From a phage, in sequence record PX246730.1: DNA of 64,000 bases. The stretch is one strand, 5' to 3'. Below, in pieces: positions 532-4,353 of this stretch (the stretch's first letter is position 1; each line of letters starts with the position of its first letter). Made by a program: the position numbers and the translations under genes. The notes below the pieces were generated by a model. The model was given only the letters and a program-made list of their open reading frames with translations. It did not search any database and was not told the DNA's origin.

Positions 532-1947
532 ATGAGCGAGTTATTCAAACATGCGCACCTTCATGCAGGTCGAACTGAAAATGGTGCTGTAAACCATACT
601 TCATCAATGTCTGCTCTGGTAGACTTCTACAAAGCCGCTGGCTCAAGCCGTAGCAATGTAGAAATCTTACCAGACCTGTTCTACAAAGCTTTGCGTGAGG
701 ATGTTGATGTTGCAGTTCGTATTTTACTGCATATGCGAGATGTACGAGAAGGTATGGGTGAGCGTAAAGCCTTCAGAACTGTTTTGCTTCAAGCGATTGA
801 AGACAAAGTTTTAGAGCCTACACAGGTTCTTCGCATTATGGATAAGATTGCAGAGCTTGGTCGTTTTGATGACTTCAAAATCTTCGTAGGTACTCGTTTT
901 GAGACAGATGCCTTTAAGCATTTAGAAGCAGCATTACTAGACCCTGAGACAGCAGGTTTAGCAGCCAAGTGGTTACCACGAGTAAAACCACGACACAAAC
1001 AGTTTGTAAAACGTTTCTGTAAGTTTGCAAACTTAAGCGAGAAAGAGTATCGCACACTGTTATCTGCACTGTCTGATACGGTTGAGCAAAAAATCTCTGC
1101 TAATGAGTTTGGTAAGATTGATTACAGTAAGATTCCTTCTCTTGCTGCTGCACGTTACCAAAAACTCTTTAACCGTAAAGATGGAGAACGCTACAAAGCT
1201 TACATTGAGTCGCTATCAAAAGGTGAAGCTAAGATTAATGCTGGTGCTGTCTACCCATACGATGTGATTAAATCTATCAAGCATGGTAATGCAGATGTTG
1301 CTAATGAGCAGTGGAAAGCACTACCAAACTGGATGGCAGAAGGTGAGAACATCTTGTGTATGACTGATGTCTCAAGCTCAATGTCTTGGGTGAATCTTGG
1401 TTCAATCACGGCTCTTGATATTGGTGTATCTCTTGCCCTGTATGTAGCAGAACGCAATACTGGTTGCTTTAAGAATGAGTTAATGGTTTATTCAACAAAC
1501 CCTCATTTCATTGAACTGAGTGGTGATTTACGAAACCGTCATCGTCAGGTGATGCGACACGTTGAATATGGTTCAACTAACTTACAAGCAGCTTTTGACC
1601 GTATTCTTGAGACAGGTAAAAGAAACAACTTGACTCAGAAAGATATGCCAAGTAAGCTTATCATCTTCTCAGATATGGAATTCAATCAGGTTGATGGAGC
1701 TAATGGTCGTACAAACTTTGAAGCAATTCAGAGTAAGTACAAAAAAGCTGGATATGAGATGCCACAACTGGTATTCTGGTACTTAGCAAACCGTAATGGT
1801 ACTTGCGAAGTGTCTGTTAAGGATAACGGTGTAGCAATGGTATCTGGTTTCTCTCCAGCCACTTTAAAAGCTCTGCTTGGTGGTGAGAAGTTTGACCCAA
1901 CCAGCGTAATGCTCAAAGCAGTAATGATTGACCGTTACATCTGGTAA
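532..1947 (+). CDS. vWA-domain protein (471 aa), possibly TROVE/Ro60-like architecture
   Basis: C-terminal MIDAS-like motif D-V-S-S-S (CMTDVSSSMSW) typical of von Willebrand A domains; about 270 aa helical N-terminal region. Confidence 0.6.
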   Translation: MSELFKHAHLHAGRTENGAVNHTSSMSALVDFYKAAGSSRSNVEILPDLFYKALREDVDVAVRILLHMRDVREGMGERKAFRTVLLQAIEDKVLEPTQVLRIMDKIAELGRFDDFKIFVGTRFETDAFKHLEAALLDPETAGLAAKWLPRVKPRHKQFVKRFCKFANLSEKEYRTLLSALSDTVEQKISANEFGKIDYSKIPSLAAARYQKLFNRKDGERYKAYIESLSKGEAKINAGAVYPYDVIKSIKHGNADVANEQWKALPNWMAEGENILCMTDVSSSMSWVNLGSITALDIGVSLALYVAERNTGCFKNELMVYSTNPHFIELSGDLRNRHRQVMRHVEYGSTNLQAAFDRILETGKRNNLTQKDMPSKLIIFSDMEFNQVDGANGRTNFEAIQSKYKKAGYEMPQLVFWYLANRNGTCEVSVKDNGVAMVSGFSPATLKALLGGEKFDPTSVMLKAVMIDRYIW

Positions 1948-1965: not shown

Positions 1966-1994
1966 TTGACAATGTGTTTGATACCCTTTAATAT
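1966..1994 (+). promoter_or_regulatory. sigma70-like promoter (TTGACA-N17-TAATAT)
   Basis: -35 TTGACA 1966-1971, 17 bp spacer, -10 TAATAT 1989-1994. Confidence 0.55.
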
Positions 1995-2056
1995 GTCCTA
2001 CATAGAAACGAAATGAGAGCTTTTCTAAGATACTGAAAAATATTTTAAAAAAGTTC

Positions 2057-2086
2057 TTGACAACCACTAAAAAATAATGTTAAAGT
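2057..2086 (+). promoter_or_regulatory. sigma70-like promoter candidate preceding tRNA cluster
   Basis: TTGACA 2057-2062, -10-like TAAAGT about 2081-2086, immediately upstream of first tRNA. Confidence 0.4.
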
Positions 2087-2271: not shown

Positions 2272-2285
2272 CCAGTTTTGACAGA

Positions 2286-2352
2286 AGACCAATTGCAGCA
2301 AACTTAATCTTATTCATCTGAAGGTAAATCGGACAAAGAAGAGATTTGGTCT
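2286..2352 (+). repeat. spacer hairpin element copy a (CAGAAGACCAA ... TTGGTCTGG)
   Basis: inverted repeat AGACCAA/TTGGTCT flanking about 55 nt; conserved internal motif cagcaaaCTTAA; first of four paralogous copies. Confidence 0.6.
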
Positions 2353-2365
2353 GGTCATTAAGAAT

Positions 2366-2439: not shown

Positions 2440-2452
2440 CCAAATTTACAGA

Positions 2453-2511
2453 AGACCGTTTACAGCAATACTTATTAAATTTTTAGCGGAAAAAATTGAA
2501 AGATACGGTCT
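2453..2511 (+). repeat. spacer hairpin element copy b (AGACCGT ... ACGGTCT)
   Basis: same conserved 5' motif tttacagaagaccgtttacagcaa and 3' ggtctggtaat as copies a, c, d. Confidence 0.6.
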
Positions 2512-2526
2512 GGTAATACTAAACAT

Positions 2527-2698: not shown

Positions 2699-2764
2699 CA
2701 ATTTTGAGAGGGCTATTTAGCCCCTCCCTTAAAGAGTTCTTACGAGTATTCTTTAAAGGAGCAG

Positions 2765-2833
2765 AAGACCAAATACAGCAAGTTACTTAAAATTTCAAGC
2801 CAATTTAATTTTGAAAAATTTAAAACTTGGTCT
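2765..2833 (+). repeat. spacer hairpin element copy c (AGACCAA ... TTGGTCT)
   Basis: conserved gcagaagaccaaatacagcaagttacttaa and cttggtctgg. Confidence 0.6.
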
Positions 2834-2852
2834 GGCTCAACAAATTTACAGA

Positions 2853-2978
2853 AGACCGTTTACAGCAAAACTTAAACAATCTATTTCTCTGGTAAAGAAA
2901 AGGCGAAGGTTCGATTCCTTCACTCGGCAGATGTCGAGTTGGTGTAATGGTAGCACTTAAGATGATAAACAACGGTCT
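2853..2978 (+). repeat. spacer hairpin element copy d, enclosing tRNA-like pieces
   Basis: inverted repeat AGACCGT (2853-2859) / ACGGTCT (2972-2978) flanks the permuted tRNA-Thr-like segment. Confidence 0.6.
2884..2957 (+). tRNA. tRNA-Thr(GGT)-like, apparently circularly permuted (3' two-thirds upstream of 5' third)
   Basis: 2884-2929: anticodon arm TTTCT-ctGGTaa-AGAAA, T-arm GAAGG-TTCGATT-CCTTC, 3' acceptor ACTCGGC plus discriminator; 2933-2957: 5' acceptor GTCGAGT (pairs 7 of 7 with ACTCGGC incl. one GU) plus complete D-arm GTGT-aatggta-GCAC. Confidence 0.35.
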
Positions 2979-3129
2979 GGTAATTATCTTTGTAGATAAG
3001 TTATTAAGCTTACCTGTGAGTATGCGACCACAAAGGGTGAAAGGGTAAATTCTAGATTTAAACCCAACAAGGCACATCGCTACAGACCTTAAGCAAGTCT
3101 GGGTAGCTTATCTACAAAGATAATTTAAT

Positions 3130-3202
3130 GGAAGTGTAGCAGAATGGTGATGCGGCAGACTTTTAATCTGACAGGCGATGGGTTCGAATCCCTCCACTTC
3201 TA
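3130..3202 (+). tRNA. tRNA-Lys(TTT) (probable)
   Basis: acceptor GGAAGTG/CACTTCT, anticodon loop ctTTTaa, T-loop TTCGAAT, CCA encoded; T-stem imperfect. Confidence 0.55.
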
Positions 3203-3209
3203 CCAATAT

Positions 3210-3288: not shown

Positions 3289-3361
3289 GCTGTGAAAGCA
3301 CATATGGATGTGCATTCGGCTGATAACCGAAAGGAAGAAGGTTCGAATCCTTCTCACAGTA
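3289..3361 (+). tRNA. tRNA-Ile(GAT)
   Basis: acceptor GCTGTGA/TCACAGT, D-stem GCAC/GTGC, anticodon stem TTCGG/CCGAA with loop ctGATaa, T-arm GAAGG-TTCGAAT-CCTTC, CCA encoded. Confidence 0.75.
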
Positions 3362-3379
3362 CCAATTTCAATAAAGTTG

Positions 3380-3408
3380 TTGACACTGAGATGTGACTAC
3401 TTTATAGT
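3380..3408 (+). promoter_or_regulatory. sigma70-like promoter (TTGACA-N17-TATAGT) inside tRNA cluster
   Basis: -35 TTGACA 3380-3385, -10 TATAGT 3403-3408. Confidence 0.55.
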
Positions 3409-3613
3409 AACCTTAGTTTTCGTTGCGTAGCGTCTATTTTGCAAATTTAAAATAAATGCAAACGACAATGTTTTTCTGGCAGTAGCTTGATAGGCTAAAC
3501 ACCAGTGAGGTCTTCCAATCCCTCATCAAAGAATTTGGCGTACTAGCCCACGGTATGATTAATAAGGTGGGCATCTTTAAGGGCTTTCTAAGAGAGTCTT
3601 TAAAGATTAATTA

Positions 3614-3692
3614 CGGGGCGTATCTCATCTGTCTTCTAAACAGACGTTAACCGAGTAAGTGGAGTATGCGGGTTCGAGTCCTGCCGCCTCGA
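3614..3692 (+). tRNA. tRNA-like element with TCT (Arg-type) anticodon loop, atypical D region
   Basis: acceptor CGGGGCG/CGCCTCG, perfect anticodon arm TCTGT-ctTCTaa-ACAGA, T-loop TTCGAGT, CCA encoded; only 7 nt between acceptor and anticodon stem, 22 nt before T-arm. Confidence 0.4.
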
Positions 3693-3838
3693 CCAATTTA
3701 GTTAGCAGATTACTTAGACGACCTAAGCGGGTCTTCCTGTAGGGAGGTGGTCTGTATCTCATGTTTTCCAGAACATGTAAATAATCTGAGAAGGGGCTTT
3801 ACAGTGTTGAGATAATACGGTAAGCTTCGAATTATAGT

Positions 3839-3918
3839 ATGGGACGATGTTAAGACTCTAAGGCATGAGCAACGGCTTCCAACACCGTTTCAAAGGGGTT
3901 CGACTCCTCCGTCCCATG
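3839..3918 (+). tRNA. tRNA, anticodon unresolved (possibly Trp CCA)
   Basis: perfect acceptor ATGGGAC/GTCCCAT, T-loop TTCGACT, CCA encoded; anticodon region ACGG-cttCCAaca-CCGT has a 9-nt loop. Confidence 0.45.
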
Positions 3919-3934
3919 CCAAAGTCTTATTAGG

Positions 3935-4022: not shown

Positions 4023-4178
4023 CCTAATAAGATTTTAAAGCCAAGCTTCATTCGGATGTTGCTTTGGTATCCCTCGTGTTGTCGAACACACTAATAAAGC
4101 ACCTAGTAGGTGTCACGGAGAAGAGATAATATCAAGCTCTCCAAAGGTTCTAGTCACCGGATTAAACAAGACTATGCA

Positions 4179-4200
4179 AAGACCTTTTTAGGTCTTTTTA
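4179..4200 (+). terminator. hairpin plus T-run (possible intrinsic terminator or processing site)
   Basis: AAGACC-ttttta-GGTCTT followed by TTTA. Confidence 0.4.
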
Positions 4201-4278
4201 GAGGGCTTCTAAGGTTATTACAGCTTGTTGTGGAACCTTGTTGCTTAGGTTCTTAGAAGTTCTCTAAAAAGATTTAAT

Positions 4279-4353
4279 GGGAGATTGACGGTAATTGGTA
4301 AACCTATCTCGCTTAGAACGAGATGTTTGAGGGTTCGAATCCCTTGTCTCCTA
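4279..4353 (+). tRNA. tRNA-Leu(TAG), short variable loop
   Basis: acceptor GGGAGAT/GTCTCCT, anticodon arm ATCTCG-ctTAGaa-CGAGAT, T-arm GAGGG-TTCGAAT-CCCTT, CCA encoded. Confidence 0.55.

What the first reader, a model, noticed from the sequence alone, without database searches (positions are those of the whole stretch)
2884..2957. Apparently circularly permuted tRNA-Thr(GGT): 3' two-thirds encoded upstream of the 5' third
Positions 2884-2929 form a perfect anticodon arm (ctGGTaa loop), T-arm and 3' acceptor strand plus discriminator. Three nt later, 2933-2957 supplies a 5' acceptor strand that pairs 7 of 7 with that 3' strand, followed by a complete D-arm. Joined in canonical order the pieces make a 71-nt cloverleaf, and no other GGT tRNA is in the cluster. 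The unit sits inside one copy of the spacer hairpin family, whose stem (2853-2859 with 2972-2978) would bring the ends together. Permuted tRNA genes are known in a red alga and some archaea; I am not aware of one in a phage. The alternative is a deletion remnant of two tandem tRNA genes.
Basis: seen in the sequence. Interest (0 to 1): 0.8.

Follow-up and report, generated by a model that had tools for sequence, protein, structure and literature searches.

The report
tRNA-like module of a phage Y RNA
The apparent "back-to-front tRNA" is real, but it is most likely the tRNA-mimicking part of a small non-coding RNA that partners a Ro60-like protein encoded next door, in a protein-plus-RNA arrangement shared by many phages whose RNA partners had not been identified.

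Summary
Positions 2884-2957 encode, in permuted order, an anticodon-like hairpin, T arm, 7-bp acceptor hairpin and D arm. This is far beyond chance: 1 hit in the window versus 1 in 200 shuffles. The window is a Felix O1-like phage.

The reading as a decoding tRNA-Thr(GGU) fails. In relatives the acceptor helix covaries and the T and D arms are conserved. The "anticodon" loop is not conserved: U33 is U, C or deleted, the anticodon is AUA in one relative, and the loop is unrecognisable in another.

The unit is the interior of element E4 (2846-2983). E4 is one of four RNAs (E1-E4) built on one frame: a covarying terminal helix, then single-stranded UACAGCAA, ending in CU-G.

Just upstream on the same strand, ORF 532-1947 (DUF2828) folds like Ro60. 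The top 12 PDB fold matches are all Ro60/TROVE proteins.

In 65 distant phage loci with this gene, the frame occurs 76 times on the gene strand and 6 on the other. It is about ten-fold enriched within 600 nt of the gene. Several copies hold permuted tRNA-like modules, some with CCA encoded, and one hits Rfam YrlA (E=8e-5).

Best reading: a YrlA-like Y RNA tRNA mimic. That is a new variant of a known kind.

The parts
532..1947 (+). Gene for a Ro60-like protein (471 aa; Pfam DUF2828 + DUF7788, the latter vWA-like; PHROG 850 'RNA-binding protein'). It is the presumed protein partner of the RNAs.
   Evidence: ORF. Pfam and PHROG assignments. AlphaFold2 model has pLDDT 87.7 and pTM 0.88. The top 12 Foldseek PDB hits are all full-length Ro60/TROVE structures (Xenopus, human, D. 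radiodurans Rsr, Thermus phage phiLo), with E 2.5e-8 to 4.5e-6 and TM 0.43-0.65. The same conclusion was published for Bas63 gp130 of a Felixounavirus.
1966..2086 (+). Two sigma-70-like promoter matches (1966-1994 and 2057-2086) between the Ro60-like gene and the first tRNA. They are the likely start of the tRNA/ncRNA polycistron.
   Evidence: each matches 10 of 12 positions. These are consensus matches only, and their number is not above the shuffled expectation.
2279..2357 (+). E1, a short Y-like RNA. Layout: outer helix UGAC/GUCA, internal loop AGA vs G, helix AGACCAA/UUGGUCU, single-stranded UUGCAGCAA.
2446..2516 (+). E2, a short Y-like RNA. Layout: outer helix UUAC/GUAA, AGA/G loop, helix AGACCGU/ACGGUCU, UUACAGCAA.
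   Evidence: Weak Rfam hit to Dicty_Class_I_RNA at 20.7 bits.
2759..2838 (+). E3, a short Y-like RNA. Layout: outer helix GAGC/GCUC, AGA/G loop, helix AGACCAA/UUGGUCU, AUACAGCAA.
   Evidence: Weak Rfam hit to Dicty_Class_I_RNA at 15.3 bits.
2846..2983 (+). E4, the long Y-like RNA that contains the finding. Layout: outer helix UUAC(2846-2849)/GUAA(2980-2983); AGA(2850-2852) vs G2979; helix 2853-2859/2972-2978; the tRNA-like interior.
   Evidence: The outer helices are invariant in 11 relatives. Across E1-E4 the 4-bp outer helix covaries: UGAC/GUCA, UUAC/GUAA, GAGC/GCUC.
2860..2868 (+). Conserved single-stranded motif UUACAGCAA directly after the 5' strand of the terminal helix. It is the proposed protein-recognition element.
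   Evidence: The same motif (UUACAGCAA, AUUCAGCAA, UUCCGCAA) occurs in 76 frames on the gene strand of 65 distant phage loci, against 6 on the other strand.
2884..2900 (+). 'Anticodon-like' hairpin, equivalent to the V stem-loop of YrlA or the AC arm of D. radiodurans Yrn1. It has a 5-bp A/U-rich stem and loop CUGGUAA. It is the least conserved hairpin.
   Evidence: 87% of cells paired; no compensatory change; loop variants.
2905..2921 (+). T arm: GAAGG / UUCGAUU / CCUUC.
   Evidence: 100% paired. Rfam tRNA model partial hit at 2872-2922, 26.8 bits.
2922..2939 (+). Acceptor-stem hairpin. 3' strand 2922-2928, discriminator A2929, loop A2929-U2932, 5' strand 2933-2939. The predicted RNase P site is between 2932 and 2933. 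The predicted 3' trimming and CCA addition is after A2929.
   Evidence: Pairing and covariation: 3 of 7 pairs change on both sides and 100% of cells are paired. N-CCA is encoded at the equivalent place in Mordin/Michonne and in distant phage modules. The cleavage itself is inferred from M. smegmatis YrlA.
2940..2957 (+). U8-G9, the D arm (GUGU / AAUGGUA / GCAC) and U26.
   Evidence: invariant in relatives. The same D arm type, GUGU-AGUGGCA-GCAC, occurs in the modules at L031 3378-3509 and L059 8367-8481.
2982..3128 (+). E5, an adjacent structured RNA closed by a helix of about 25 bp (2982-3010 with 3099-3128). It is probably another member of the ncRNA array. It contains the sequence AGAC-CUUAAGCAA-GUCU-G.
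   Evidence: RNAalifold on 9 relatives gives 34 pairs, 7 of them with changes on both sides. This was not analysed further.

Best explanation
Positions 2884-2957 are the tRNA-like domain of a roughly 138-nt phage non-coding RNA, E4 (2846-2983). E4 belongs to a family of Y RNA-like RNAs (E1-E4, probably also E5). They are encoded just downstream of, and on the same strand as, a Ro60-like protein gene (532-1947).

Shown:
- The RNA fold: a terminal helix in two parts, a conserved single-stranded UACAGCAA, then V/AC hairpin, T arm, 7-bp acceptor hairpin and D arm.
- Its conservation, and covariation of the acceptor helix.
- The Ro60-like fold of the neighbouring protein.
- The recurrent linkage, specific to the gene strand, of this RNA frame with homologues of that gene in distant phages. 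Permuted tRNA-like modules occur inside some of those copies.

Inferred:
- The RNAs are made as part of the tRNA-cluster transcript and released by the nucleases that process the flanking tRNAs.
- The terminal helix plus UACAGCAA/CU-G is the binding site of the Ro60-like protein.
- The tRNA-like domain is treated as a tRNA by host enzymes. RNase P would cut 5' of G2933. The 3' end would be trimmed to A2929 and given CCA. The result would be a nicked two-piece RNA held together by the acceptor helix, as happens to Mycobacterium smegmatis YrlA.
- The tRNA-like module serves as the effector or stabilising module of the RNP. It would tether the Ro60-like ring to a tRNA-recognising or RNA-degrading host factor, or protect the RNA from exonucleases. 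It does not decode codons.
For: 1. Anatomy and significance.

2. Conservation pattern. The T arm, D arm and outer helices are invariant. The acceptor helix is ACUCGGC/GUCGAGU in Felixounavirus, ACACGUU/GGCGUGU in Mooglevirus and Suspvirus, and ACCCUUC/GAAGGGU in Mordin. The anticodon loop is variable.

3. Same frame with other interiors. E1-E3 lie in the window, and the 4-bp outer helix covaries between copies.

4. The neighbouring protein folds like Ro60. [quoted passage not shown]

5. Linkage in 65 distant phage loci (protein 40-47% identical). The frame gives 76 hits on the gene strand against 6 on the other strand, with 8-16 in shuffles. 44 of 65 loci have at least one on the gene strand. 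Density is 0.62 per kb within 600 nt of the gene against 0.06-0.08 per kb elsewhere. Two such loci (L031, L089) have no ARAGORN tRNA at all, so the linkage is to the gene and not to tRNA clusters.

6. Permuted T, acceptor-hairpin, D modules sit inside such frames at L031 (four copies), L032, L042, L058 (two copies), L059 and L060.

7. The element at L031 3770-3880 matches Rfam YrlA over the full model in the order T, AS, D. The score is 38.2 bits, E=8e-5 in a 65-kb search and 3.4e-6 locally. The same array holds a module with the E4-type D arm.

8. N-CCA is encoded directly after the acceptor 3' strand in 4 of 11 distinct modules, and with a 1-nt offset in a fifth. That is expected only if this end is used as a tRNA-like 3' end.

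9. Published precedent. YrlA has the order V, T, AS, D. M. smegmatis YrlA, with a 7-bp acceptor stem, is cut by RNase P and gains CCA in vivo. D. radiodurans Yrn1 has a 5-bp 'anticodon' stem with a 6-nt loop. A phage Ro60 binds phage-encoded Y-like RNAs and host PNPase.
Against: - No expression, processing or binding data exist for these RNAs.
- The Rfam YrlA model does not hit E4 itself, even at E<=10 in a 261-nt search.
- The Ro60-binding motif of known bacterial Y RNAs, GNCGAAN0-1G, is absent.
- The protein is Ro60-like only by predicted structure. There is no Pfam TROVE hit and no PDB sequence hit.
- Bas63 gp130 alone, expressed from a plasmid or from T7, counters the Ppl defence system. 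That phenotype therefore does not need the phage RNAs.
- Natural isolates lacking all or part of E4 exist (SP116, ESCO49), so E4 is dispensable.
- The distant tRNA-like modules were found with a scan that required pairing. Their covariation statistics are therefore partly circular.
- The single-sequence folding energy of E4 is only modestly below shuffles (z = -1.8).
Confidence: 0.75

Rival explanations
1. The element is a true circularly permuted tRNA-Thr(GGU) gene. The precursor would be circularised or re-ordered and matured into a decoding tRNA, as in Cyanidioschyzon merolae or Thermofilum pendens.
For: The pieces joined in canonical order give a cloverleaf that ARAGORN calls tRNA-Thr(GGT) in the window and in 5 of the 10 relatives. 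The acceptor helix is under selection. No other GGT tRNA is in the cluster. The flanking helix brings the ends together.
Against: - The anticodon loop is not conserved. FelixO1 and REP9 have a 6-nt loop, SME50 and D1-2 have C33, ESh22 has AUA, and Mordin has a different hairpin.
- Acceptor identity pairs and the discriminator vary.
- No bulge-helix-bulge motif is present at the 2883/2884 and 2957/2958 junctions (inspection; folds).
- Enterobacteria lack the splicing endonuclease (established knowledge).
- No group I intron signal is present that could give a permuted intron-exon.
- The same frame carries non-tRNA interiors.
- Natural deletion variants exist.
Confidence: 0.04
2. The element is a non-functional remnant of two tandem tRNA genes: the 3' part of one and the 5' part of the next, left by deletions and simply carried along.
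For: tRNA clusters of these phages are recombinogenic. SP116 and ESCO49 have deletions with breakpoints at the T arm and D arm of this element. The module may well have originated this way.
Against: - The element is conserved across three genera while neighbouring sequence diverges.
- Three acceptor pairs are maintained by double changes, and 100% of cells are paired.
- No relative has an intact tRNA-Thr(GGU) at this site.
- Equivalent permuted modules, several with CCA, recur inside the same RNA frame in unrelated phages.
- The arrangement is not expected by chance.
Confidence: 0.05
3. The element is a tRNA-like RNA that acts independently of the Ro60-like protein. It could be a processing signal for RNase P or RNase Z that punctuates the polycistronic transcript. 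It could also be a decoy or sponge for host tRNA-targeting defence nucleases or tRNA-modifying enzymes.
For: The element sits in a tRNA cluster and has a 7-bp acceptor stem with a discriminator, which is a good RNase P substrate shape. CCA is encoded in some relatives. gp130 works against Ppl without the RNAs. The variable 'anticodon' loop would be tolerated in a decoy.
Against: This does not explain the conserved terminal helix plus UACAGCAA frame shared with E1-E3. It does not explain the roughly ten-fold enrichment of that frame next to the Ro60-like gene, on its strand, in distant phages. That enrichment includes contigs without any tRNA genes.
Confidence: 0.14
4. The element is a two-piece (permuted) tmRNA-like RNA. 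The acceptor piece would lie upstream and a coding piece downstream.
For: The permutation of the tRNA-like part has the same gene order as in two-piece tmRNA. Weak Rfam tmRNA_permuted and tmRNA hits occur elsewhere in the cluster (3306-3490 and 3422-3612).
Against: - No Rfam tmRNA hit falls on 2740-3000.
- Pair 3-70 is C-G, G-C-type or A-U, never the G-U alanine identity pair.
- A full D arm and an extra hairpin are present.
- No conserved tag reading frame follows: the downstream sequence differs strongly between clades.
- ARAGORN reports no tmRNA.
Confidence: 0.01

Closest known systems
YrlA-type bacterial and phage Y RNAs (Rfam RF02553; Chen et al. 2014, PMC4201824), partners of Ro60/Rsr
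   Same: - Encoded within about 1 kb of, and on the same strand as, a Ro60-fold protein gene.
- The 5' and 3' ends pair to close the RNA.
- The interior is a permuted tRNA-like domain in the order V/AC hairpin, T arm, acceptor hairpin, D arm.
- It is accompanied by shorter hairpin Y RNAs, like YrlB.
- It has a 7-bp acceptor stem, as in the M. smegmatis YrlA that is cut by RNase P and given CCA.
- A sister element in a distant phage (L031) hits RF02553 significantly.
   Different: - E4 itself does not hit RF02553.
- The GNCGAAN0-1G Ro-binding motif is replaced by AG-helix / UACAGCAA / CU-G.
- The protein is DUF2828, not Pfam TROVE.
- The RNAs are embedded in a phage tRNA cluster as an array of 4-5.
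- There is a 5-bp hairpin with an anticodon-like 7-nt loop.
Circularly permuted tRNA genes of Cyanidioschyzon merolae and other algae, and of Thermofilum pendens
   Same: The 3' portion of a cloverleaf is encoded upstream of the 5' portion, with a short linker joining the acceptor 3' and 5' strands. The flanks can pair.
   Different: Those genes depend on a bulge-helix-bulge junction, the splicing endonuclease and a ligase. They yield conserved, decoding tRNAs. Here there is no BHB, the host has no such enzymes, the anticodon loop is not conserved, and the breakpoint would be at 26/27.
Ro60 with Yrl1/Yrl2 of Thermus phage phiLo (PMC12135203), and Bas63 gp130 (bioRxiv 10.1101/2024.10.10.617714)
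   Same: Both are phage-encoded Ro60-fold proteins with adjacent small structured RNAs. gp130 is the Felixounavirus counterpart of the ORF at 532-1947, and its authors guessed that some neighbouring 'tRNA genes' are Y RNAs.
   Different: The phiLo RNAs carry the CGAA motif and no tRNA-like domain was described for them. For Bas63 no RNA was identified. The RNAs proposed here are not among the annotated tRNAs but lie in the spacers between them.
Dictyostelid Class I RNAs (Rfam RF01414; Kjellin et al. 2021, PMC7919456)
   Same: The design matches that of the short elements E1-E3 and many distant phage copies. It consists of a start (A)AG, a 6-8 bp terminal stem conserved in structure but not in sequence, the single-stranded (CC)UUACAGCAA directly after the 5' strand, a variable interior, and the end CUG(U). 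RF01414 is the recurrent best Rfam hit, up to 28.2 bits with local E=0.0038.
   Different: All scores are below the gathering threshold of 41.5. Class I RNAs are eukaryotic, reported as unique to Dictyostelia, and have no known Ro60-like partner or tRNA-like module. Homology is unproven.
Two-piece (permuted) tmRNA
   Same: The acceptor 3' strand with the T arm is encoded upstream of the acceptor 5' strand. Processing in the connecting loop yields two base-paired RNAs.
   Different: There is no tag ORF, no G3-U70 pair and no pseudoknots. A full D arm is present, and no Rfam or ARAGORN tmRNA is called here.

Membership tests
Circularly permuted tRNA gene (C. merolae / T. pendens type) | 3' part of the cloverleaf encoded upstream of the 5' part on one strand | tested here: met
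Circularly permuted tRNA gene (C. merolae / T. pendens type) | Bulge-helix-bulge motif formed by leader and trailer at the tRNA junction | tested here: not met
   Inspection of 2860-2883 and 2958-2971 and the predicted folds show only single-stranded linkers and a distant 7-bp helix. There is no 3-nt bulge / 4-bp helix / 3-nt bulge arrangement.
Circularly permuted tRNA gene (C. merolae / T. pendens type) | Host or element has a tRNA splicing endonuclease and ligase to circularise the precursor | not testable with these tools
   It is established knowledge that E. coli and Salmonella lack EndA/Sen-type endonucleases. The phage proteome was not fully screened.
Circularly permuted tRNA gene (C. 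merolae / T. pendens type) | Product is a conserved decoding tRNA with a 7-nt anticodon loop, U33 and a conserved anticodon | tested here: not met
   Position 33 is U, C or deleted, one relative has anticodon AUA, and the hairpin is unrecognisable in Mordin and Michonne.
YrlA-type Y RNA | Encoded within about 4 kb of a Ro60 orthologue on the same strand | tested here: met
   E4 starts 899 nt after the stop codon of ORF 532-1947 on the + strand. That ORF is Ro60-like by structure, but it is not a Pfam TROVE protein.
YrlA-type Y RNA | 5' and 3' ends pair, and the interior is a tRNA-like domain in the order V, T, acceptor-like stem-loop, D | tested here: met
   compared with the description.
YrlA-type Y RNA | Conserved GNCGAAN0-1G (Ro/Rsr-binding) motif near the 5' end | tested here: not met
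   The 5' region is UUACAGAAGACCGUUUACAGCAA. The motif is absent. The conserved motif is UACAGCAA instead.
YrlA-type Y RNA | Match to the Rfam RF02553 covariance model | tested here: not met
   E4 gives no hit at E<=10. A sister element at L031 3770-3880 scores 38.2 bits, E=8e-5, which is below the gathering score of 69.
YrlA-type Y RNA | tRNA tertiary-interaction nucleotides: U8-A14, G18/G19 with U55/C56, U54-A58, and the Levitt pair 15-48 | tested here: inconclusive
   U8, A14, G18, G19, U54, U55, C56 and A58 are all present. Pair 15-48 is A with C or A, which is not a canonical Levitt pair.
YrlA-type Y RNA | Bound by Ro60/Rsr, modified by TruB and DusA, cleaved by RNase P | not testable with these tools
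   Requires experiments.
Canonical tRNA-Thr(GGU) | Contiguous cloverleaf detected by tRNA finders | tested here: not met
   ARAGORN makes no call. The Rfam tRNA model gives only a partial hit of 26.8 bits, below the gathering score of 29.
Two-piece tmRNA | G3-U70 alanine identity pair, tag reading frame and pseudoknots | tested here: not met
Dictyostelid Class I RNA (RF01414) | Short terminal stem, an 11-nt motif after the 5' strand, AAG start and CUGU end, and a score at or above the Rfam gathering threshold | tested here: inconclusive
   The architecture and motif are shared. Scores are 15-28 bits against a gathering score of 41.5. This applies to the short elements, not to the tRNA-like module.

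The most novel reading that the evidence does not exclude
The terminal-helix / UACAGCAA / CU-G frame may define a previously unrecognised, widespread class of RNA ligands for DUF2828-type Ro60-like proteins. Its members carry interchangeable interiors: plain hairpins, permuted tRNA mimics that are nicked and given CCA, and other modules. The dictyostelid Class I RNAs have the same start, stem, UUACAGCAA motif and CUGU end. They are thought to be unique to social amoebae and their mechanism is unknown. They may be the eukaryotic members of this class, that is, Y-RNA analogues of a DUF2828/Ro60-like protein.
Probability: 0.2. Interest if true: 0.85.

Novelty: new variant of a known kind. Interest (0 to 1): 0.65.

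Why it matters
It turns an apparent oddity, a permuted tRNA gene in a phage, into a testable RNP system.

- **Candidate RNA partners.** It names specific candidate RNAs for the Ro60-like protein of Felix O1-like phages. The Bas63 counterpart of that protein, gp130, is an experimentally validated counter to the Ppl defence system, but its RNA partners had only been guessed at.
- **Hidden RNAs in annotated genomes.** The 'spacers' in phage tRNA clusters hide an array of structured RNAs that tRNA finders and Rfam miss.
- **A new recognition motif.** The frame AG-helix, UACAGCAA, CU-G differs from the known Ro60-binding motif. It is linked to DUF2828 genes in Ounavirinae, in contigs whose lengths match KVP40- and Aeh1-type phage genomes, and in many uncultivated phages.
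- **A hint about processing.** The recurrent encoded CCA suggests that tRNA mimicry with RNase P nicking and CCA addition is a general feature of these RNPs. So far this has been seen only in one mycobacterial YrlA.
- **A possible answer for Class I RNAs.** If the resemblance to Dictyostelium Class I RNAs is real, it offers a mechanistic handle on a 20-year-old orphan RNA class.

Tried and rejected
- **Group I intron / permuted intron-exon.** I considered that the roughly 180-nt flanks might be intron halves that circularise the tRNA. No Intron_gpI or other ribozyme hit appeared at E<=10, and the flanks are explained by the Y-like frame.
- **Two-piece tmRNA.** Rejected: no model hit, no G3-U70 pair, no tag frame.
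- **Insertions in relatives.** I checked whether relatives that align in two BLAST pieces carry an intact tRNA-Thr(GGU) here. They do not. The extra DNA is a tRNA-Asp and/or an HNH endonuclease gene inserted right after tRNA-Tyr, upstream of E3. The 'tRNA-Thr(CGT)' annotated in REP9 occupies that tRNA-Asp position and is not this element.
- **Minus-strand ORF.** The ORF at 2820-3077, annotated as hypothetical in some relatives (FelixO1 ORF94), overlaps the conserved RNA helices. I take it to be spurious.
- **Sequence searches against PDB.** The protein and its profile gave no Ro60 hit. Only the fold comparison did.
- **Metazoan Ro-binding sequence.** The GACCG in the E2/E4 helix resembles the metazoan GGUCCGA, but the helix sequence is free to vary in other phages. 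I regard the resemblance as coincidence.
- **Dictyostelium DUF2828 test.** The afdb50 fold library was unavailable, Avesson 2011 is not held, and literature searches gave nothing.
- **Bas63 record.** My guess at the GenBank accession returned Bas27 instead, so I dropped that check.
Full report
**What the window is**

The region is the tRNA cluster of a Felix O1-like myovirus (Ounavirinae, Felixounavirus). The 700 nt around the finding are 97-99% identical to about 200 phage records, including Felix O1 itself. They are 82-90% identical to Mooglevirus and Suspvirus phages. ARAGORN finds 24 tRNAs on the + strand. It finds none between tRNA-Tyr (2613-2700) and tRNA-Lys (3130-3205).

**The observation**

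- 2884-2900 is a 5-bp hairpin with loop CUGGUAA.
- 2905-2921 is a T arm with loop UUCGAUU.
- 2922-2928 plus A2929 is an acceptor 3' strand with its discriminator.
- After the linker GAU, 2933-2939 pairs 7 of 7 with that strand.
- U8-G9 and a D arm (2942-2956) follow.

Joined in canonical order, the pieces are called tRNA-Thr(GGT) by ARAGORN. A strict scan for this permuted arrangement finds one site in the window on both strands. It finds one site in 200 dinucleotide shuffles of the whole window. RNAfold and RNAalifold both recover the outer helix and the four hairpins unaided.

**What relatives show**

I aligned the Tyr-to-Lys interval, and then the element itself, from 11 phages of three genera.

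The T arm, the D arm and the outer helices are invariant. The acceptor helix changes with compensation:
- ACUCGGC/GUCGAGU in Felixounavirus;
- ACACGUU/GGCGUGU in Mooglevirus and Suspvirus;
- ACCCUUC/GAAGGGU in Mordin and Michonne.

Three of its seven pairs change on both sides, and all cells remain paired. In Mordin and Michonne the 3' strand is followed by G-CCA.

The 'anticodon' hairpin is the least conserved part.
- Within Felixounavirus, position 33 is U, C or deleted. Deletion leaves a 6-nt loop in Felix O1, REP9 and others.
- ESh22 reads AUA.
- Mordin has an unrelated hairpin.

Acceptor pairs 1-72 and 2-71 and the discriminator also vary. No relative has an intact tRNA-Thr(GGU) at this place. 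The insertions in some relatives are a tRNA-Asp and/or an HNH endonuclease gene right after tRNA-Tyr. Two isolates have lost part of the element through deletions that break at its T arm or D arm (SP116, ESCO49).

This pattern fits an RNA whose tRNA-like shape is selected but whose decoding is not. It argues against both a decoding permuted tRNA and a decaying remnant.

**The frame around it**

The unit is the interior of a larger element, E4 (2846-2983). Its layout is:
- a 4-bp outer helix, UUAC/GUAA;
- an internal loop, AGA against G;
- a 7-bp helix, AGACCGU/ACGGUCU;
- directly after the 5' strand, single-stranded UUACAGCAA.

Three more copies of this frame lie in spacers of the cluster: E1 (2279-2357), E2 (2446-2516) and E3 (2759-2838). 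Each has a different interior of about 50 nt, and the outer helix covaries between copies: UGAC/GUCA, UUAC/GUAA, GAGC/GCUC.

Immediately downstream, 2982-3128 forms a helix of about 25 bp with compensatory changes between clades (E5).

**The neighbouring gene**

ORF 532-1947 ends 166 nt before the first tRNA, on the same strand. Two promoter-like sites lie in between. The ORF encodes a 471-aa DUF2828 + DUF7788 protein, PHROG 850 'RNA-binding protein'.

Sequence searches against PDB find nothing. An AlphaFold2 model built on 39 homologues has pLDDT 87.7 and pTM 0.88. All of its top 12 Foldseek hits in PDB are full-length Ro60/TROVE structures: Xenopus and human Ro60, D. radiodurans Rsr, and the Ro60 of Thermus phage phiLo. 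E-values run from 2.5e-8 to 4.5e-6, and the next hits are only vWA domains.

A 2024 preprint reached the same structural conclusion for gp130 of the Felixounavirus Bas63. It showed that gp130 counters the Ppl defence system. [quoted passage not shown]

**Comparison with known Y RNAs**

Chen et al. 2014 describe bacterial and phage YrlA RNAs.
- They are encoded within 4 kb of Ro60 on the same strand.
- Their ends pair.
- Their interior is a tRNA-like domain in the order V stem-loop, T arm, acceptor-like stem-loop, D arm. That is exactly the permutation seen here.
- M. smegmatis YrlA has a 7-bp acceptor stem. It is cut by RNase P and gains CCA in vivo, leaving two halves bound to Rsr.
- D. radiodurans Yrn1 has a 5-bp 'anticodon' stem with a 6-nt loop.
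- Each species has additional short hairpin Y RNAs.

A phage Ro60 (phiLo) binds two phage-encoded Y-like RNAs and host PNPase.

**Test of the link in distant phages**

I fetched 80 viral contigs encoding homologues of the protein. Of these, 65 lie outside Ounavirinae, with 40-47% protein identity.

I scanned for the frame, defined as a stem of 6-8 bp starting with AG, then 1-4 nt, then [C/A][A/C/U]GCA, then the complementary strand ending in CU followed by G.
- It gives 76 hits on the gene strand and 6 on the opposite strand, with 8-16 in shuffles.
- 44 of the 65 loci have at least one on the gene strand.
- Density is 0.62 per kb within 600 nt of the gene, against 0.06-0.08 per kb elsewhere.

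Stem sequences vary freely, while UUACAGCAA or AUUCAGCAA is kept.

Ten of the 25 long frames I inspected contain a T arm, then an acceptor-like hairpin, then a D arm. These are four copies in L031, one in L032, one in L042, two in L058, one in L059 and one in L060. None overlaps an ARAGORN tRNA. L031 and L089 have no tRNA genes at all.

N-CCA follows the acceptor 3' strand in the Mordin type, in two L031 copies and in one L058 copy. It follows with a 1-nt offset in a second L058 copy.

One of these elements, L031 3770-3880, matches the Rfam YrlA model end to end at 38.2 bits. E is 8e-5 in a 65-kb search and 3.4e-6 locally, and the score is below the gathering threshold of 69. The same array holds a module whose D arm and U-G spacer are of the E4 type.

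A pair count on 10 modules gives 96% of cells paired, and 13 of 16 pairs change on both sides. The distant modules were selected by a scan that required pairing, so this count is partly circular. I rely instead on the strand bias, the shuffles, the position next to the gene and the CCA enrichment.

**Interpretation**

The best-supported reading is that 2884-2957 is the tRNA-like module of a Y RNA-like non-coding RNA that partners the Ro60-like protein.

Shown:
- the fold and its conservation;
- the Ro60-like fold of the neighbouring protein;
- the cross-phage linkage of the frame with the gene;
- the recurrence of permuted tRNA mimics inside the frame.

Inferred:
- co-transcription with the tRNAs;
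- binding of the helix plus UACAGCAA by the protein;
- RNase P cleavage before G2933, with trimming and CCA addition after A2929;
- an effector-tethering or stabilising role for the module.

Points against a simple membership claim:
- E4 does not hit the YrlA model.
- The canonical GNCGAAN0-1G motif is absent.
- The protein is not a Pfam TROVE protein.
- gp130 alone suffices against Ppl.
- E4 is dispensable in some isolates.

I therefore file it as a new variant of a known kind that works like YrlA, not as a member of RF02553.

**An unexpected resemblance**

The short elements repeatedly hit one Rfam family, Dictyostelium Class I RNA (RF01414):
- window E2 at 20.7 bits and E3 at 15.3 bits;
- L039 at 28.2 bits, with E=0.0038 in a local search;
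- L055 at 24.7 bits;
- three L031 copies at 18-20 bits.

Class I RNAs are described as starting with AAG. They have a 6-bp terminal stem conserved in structure only, an unpaired 11-nt motif CCUUACAGCAA right after the 5' strand, a variable interior, and the end CUGU. They are considered unique to dictyostelids, and their mechanism is unknown.

That is the design of the phage frame. All scores are below the gathering threshold, and I could not test whether Dictyostelium has a DUF2828 protein. This remains a lead, with a probability of about 0.2.

**Verdict**

The element is not a permuted decoding tRNA gene. It is a permuted tRNA mimic inside a Ro60-associated RNA. To my knowledge from the searches run, this family has not been described for these phages.

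Noticed in passing
window 2279-2357, 2446-2516, 2759-2838; L039 5791-5851; L055 3795-3844; L031 1405-1454, 2092-2148, 3892-3940: The short Y-like elements share their whole design with Dictyostelium Class I RNAs: (A)AG start, a covarying 6-8 bp terminal stem, unpaired UUACAGCAA after the 5' strand, and the end CUG(U). RF01414 is their recurrent best Rfam hit, at up to 28.2 bits (local E=0.0038), which is below the gathering score of 41.5.
   Followed up: partly
window 2982-3128: Between E4 and tRNA-Lys there is a structured RNA closed by a helix of about 25 bp, with compensatory changes between Felixounavirus and Mooglevirus/Suspvirus. The interior differs strongly between clades. It contains AGAC-CUUAAGCAA-GUCU-G, a miniature of the frame motif.
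   Followed up: partly
window 3614-3692: The Rfam tRNA model hits here at 33.4 bits, above the gathering score of 29, but ARAGORN makes no call. The sequence has a T arm, an acceptor helix followed by ACCA and an anticodon-like loop CUUCUAA (UCU, Arg), but no normal D arm. Relatives annotate a tRNA-Arg about 330-340 nt downstream of tRNA-Ile (SP116 L005 1423-1499, Mordin L007 2039-2115), which in the window would fall near 3700-3780, so I did not establish that this hit is the same gene.
   Followed up: no
window 3841-3922: A second uncalled tRNA-like sequence. AUGGGACG...CGUCCCAU is followed by GCCA. It has a T arm (GGGGUUCGACUCCUCC) and a 5-bp stem AACGG/CCGUU that encloses a 9-nt loop CUUCCAACA.
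   Followed up: no
window 3306-3612: Weak Rfam hits to tmRNA_permuted (3306-3490, 24.7 bits, E=0.044) and tmRNA (3422-3612, 15.6 bits) in the gap after tRNA-Ile. Both are below the gathering scores, and ARAGORN reports no tmRNA.
   Followed up: no
window 2700-2760 compared with relatives (L012 420-496, L002 407-483, L003 858-933): This genome goes directly from tRNA-Tyr to E3, and ARAGORN finds no tRNA-Asp anywhere in its cluster. Most relatives carry tRNA-Asp(GTC) at this point, and some also carry an HNH homing endonuclease gene. REP9 annotates an 86-nt 'tRNA-Thr(CGT)' there.
   Followed up: partly
L005 (SP116) 701-932; L006 (ESCO49) 680-873: These are natural deletion variants. The SP116 deletion breaks in the T arm of E4, which is then fused to sequence ending in ...CUACCAA before tRNA-Met. 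The ESCO49 deletion breaks at the end of the D arm. This suggests recombination between tRNA-like repeats in the cluster.
   Followed up: partly
L032 3133-3233, L033 2102-2197, L042 3707-3806, L059 3734-3829: Long frames in distant phages share a different conserved interior, ...GAACCUUUCCGGAGGGGAAAGCAAAAACUCGCCAAAAG. It is a second, non-tRNA module type carried by the same frame.
   Followed up: no
L091 6192-6315: One frame contains a tRNA-like interior in the normal, unpermuted order: D arm, anticodon-like arm, T arm. The frame helix takes the place of the acceptor stem.
   Followed up: no
L080 1838-2119: A phage contig that encodes the Ro60-like protein also encodes a strong permuted (two-piece) tmRNA. 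The Rfam tmRNA_permuted score is 90.9 bits, E=3.5e-16.
   Followed up: no
window 4168-4198 and 4200-4279: A terminator-like hairpin, AAAGACC-UUUUU-AGGUCUUU followed by U-rich sequence, lies inside the tRNA cluster. A long hairpin follows it and gives a spurious plant miRNA hit in Rfam (MIR473, 32.7 bits).
   Followed up: no
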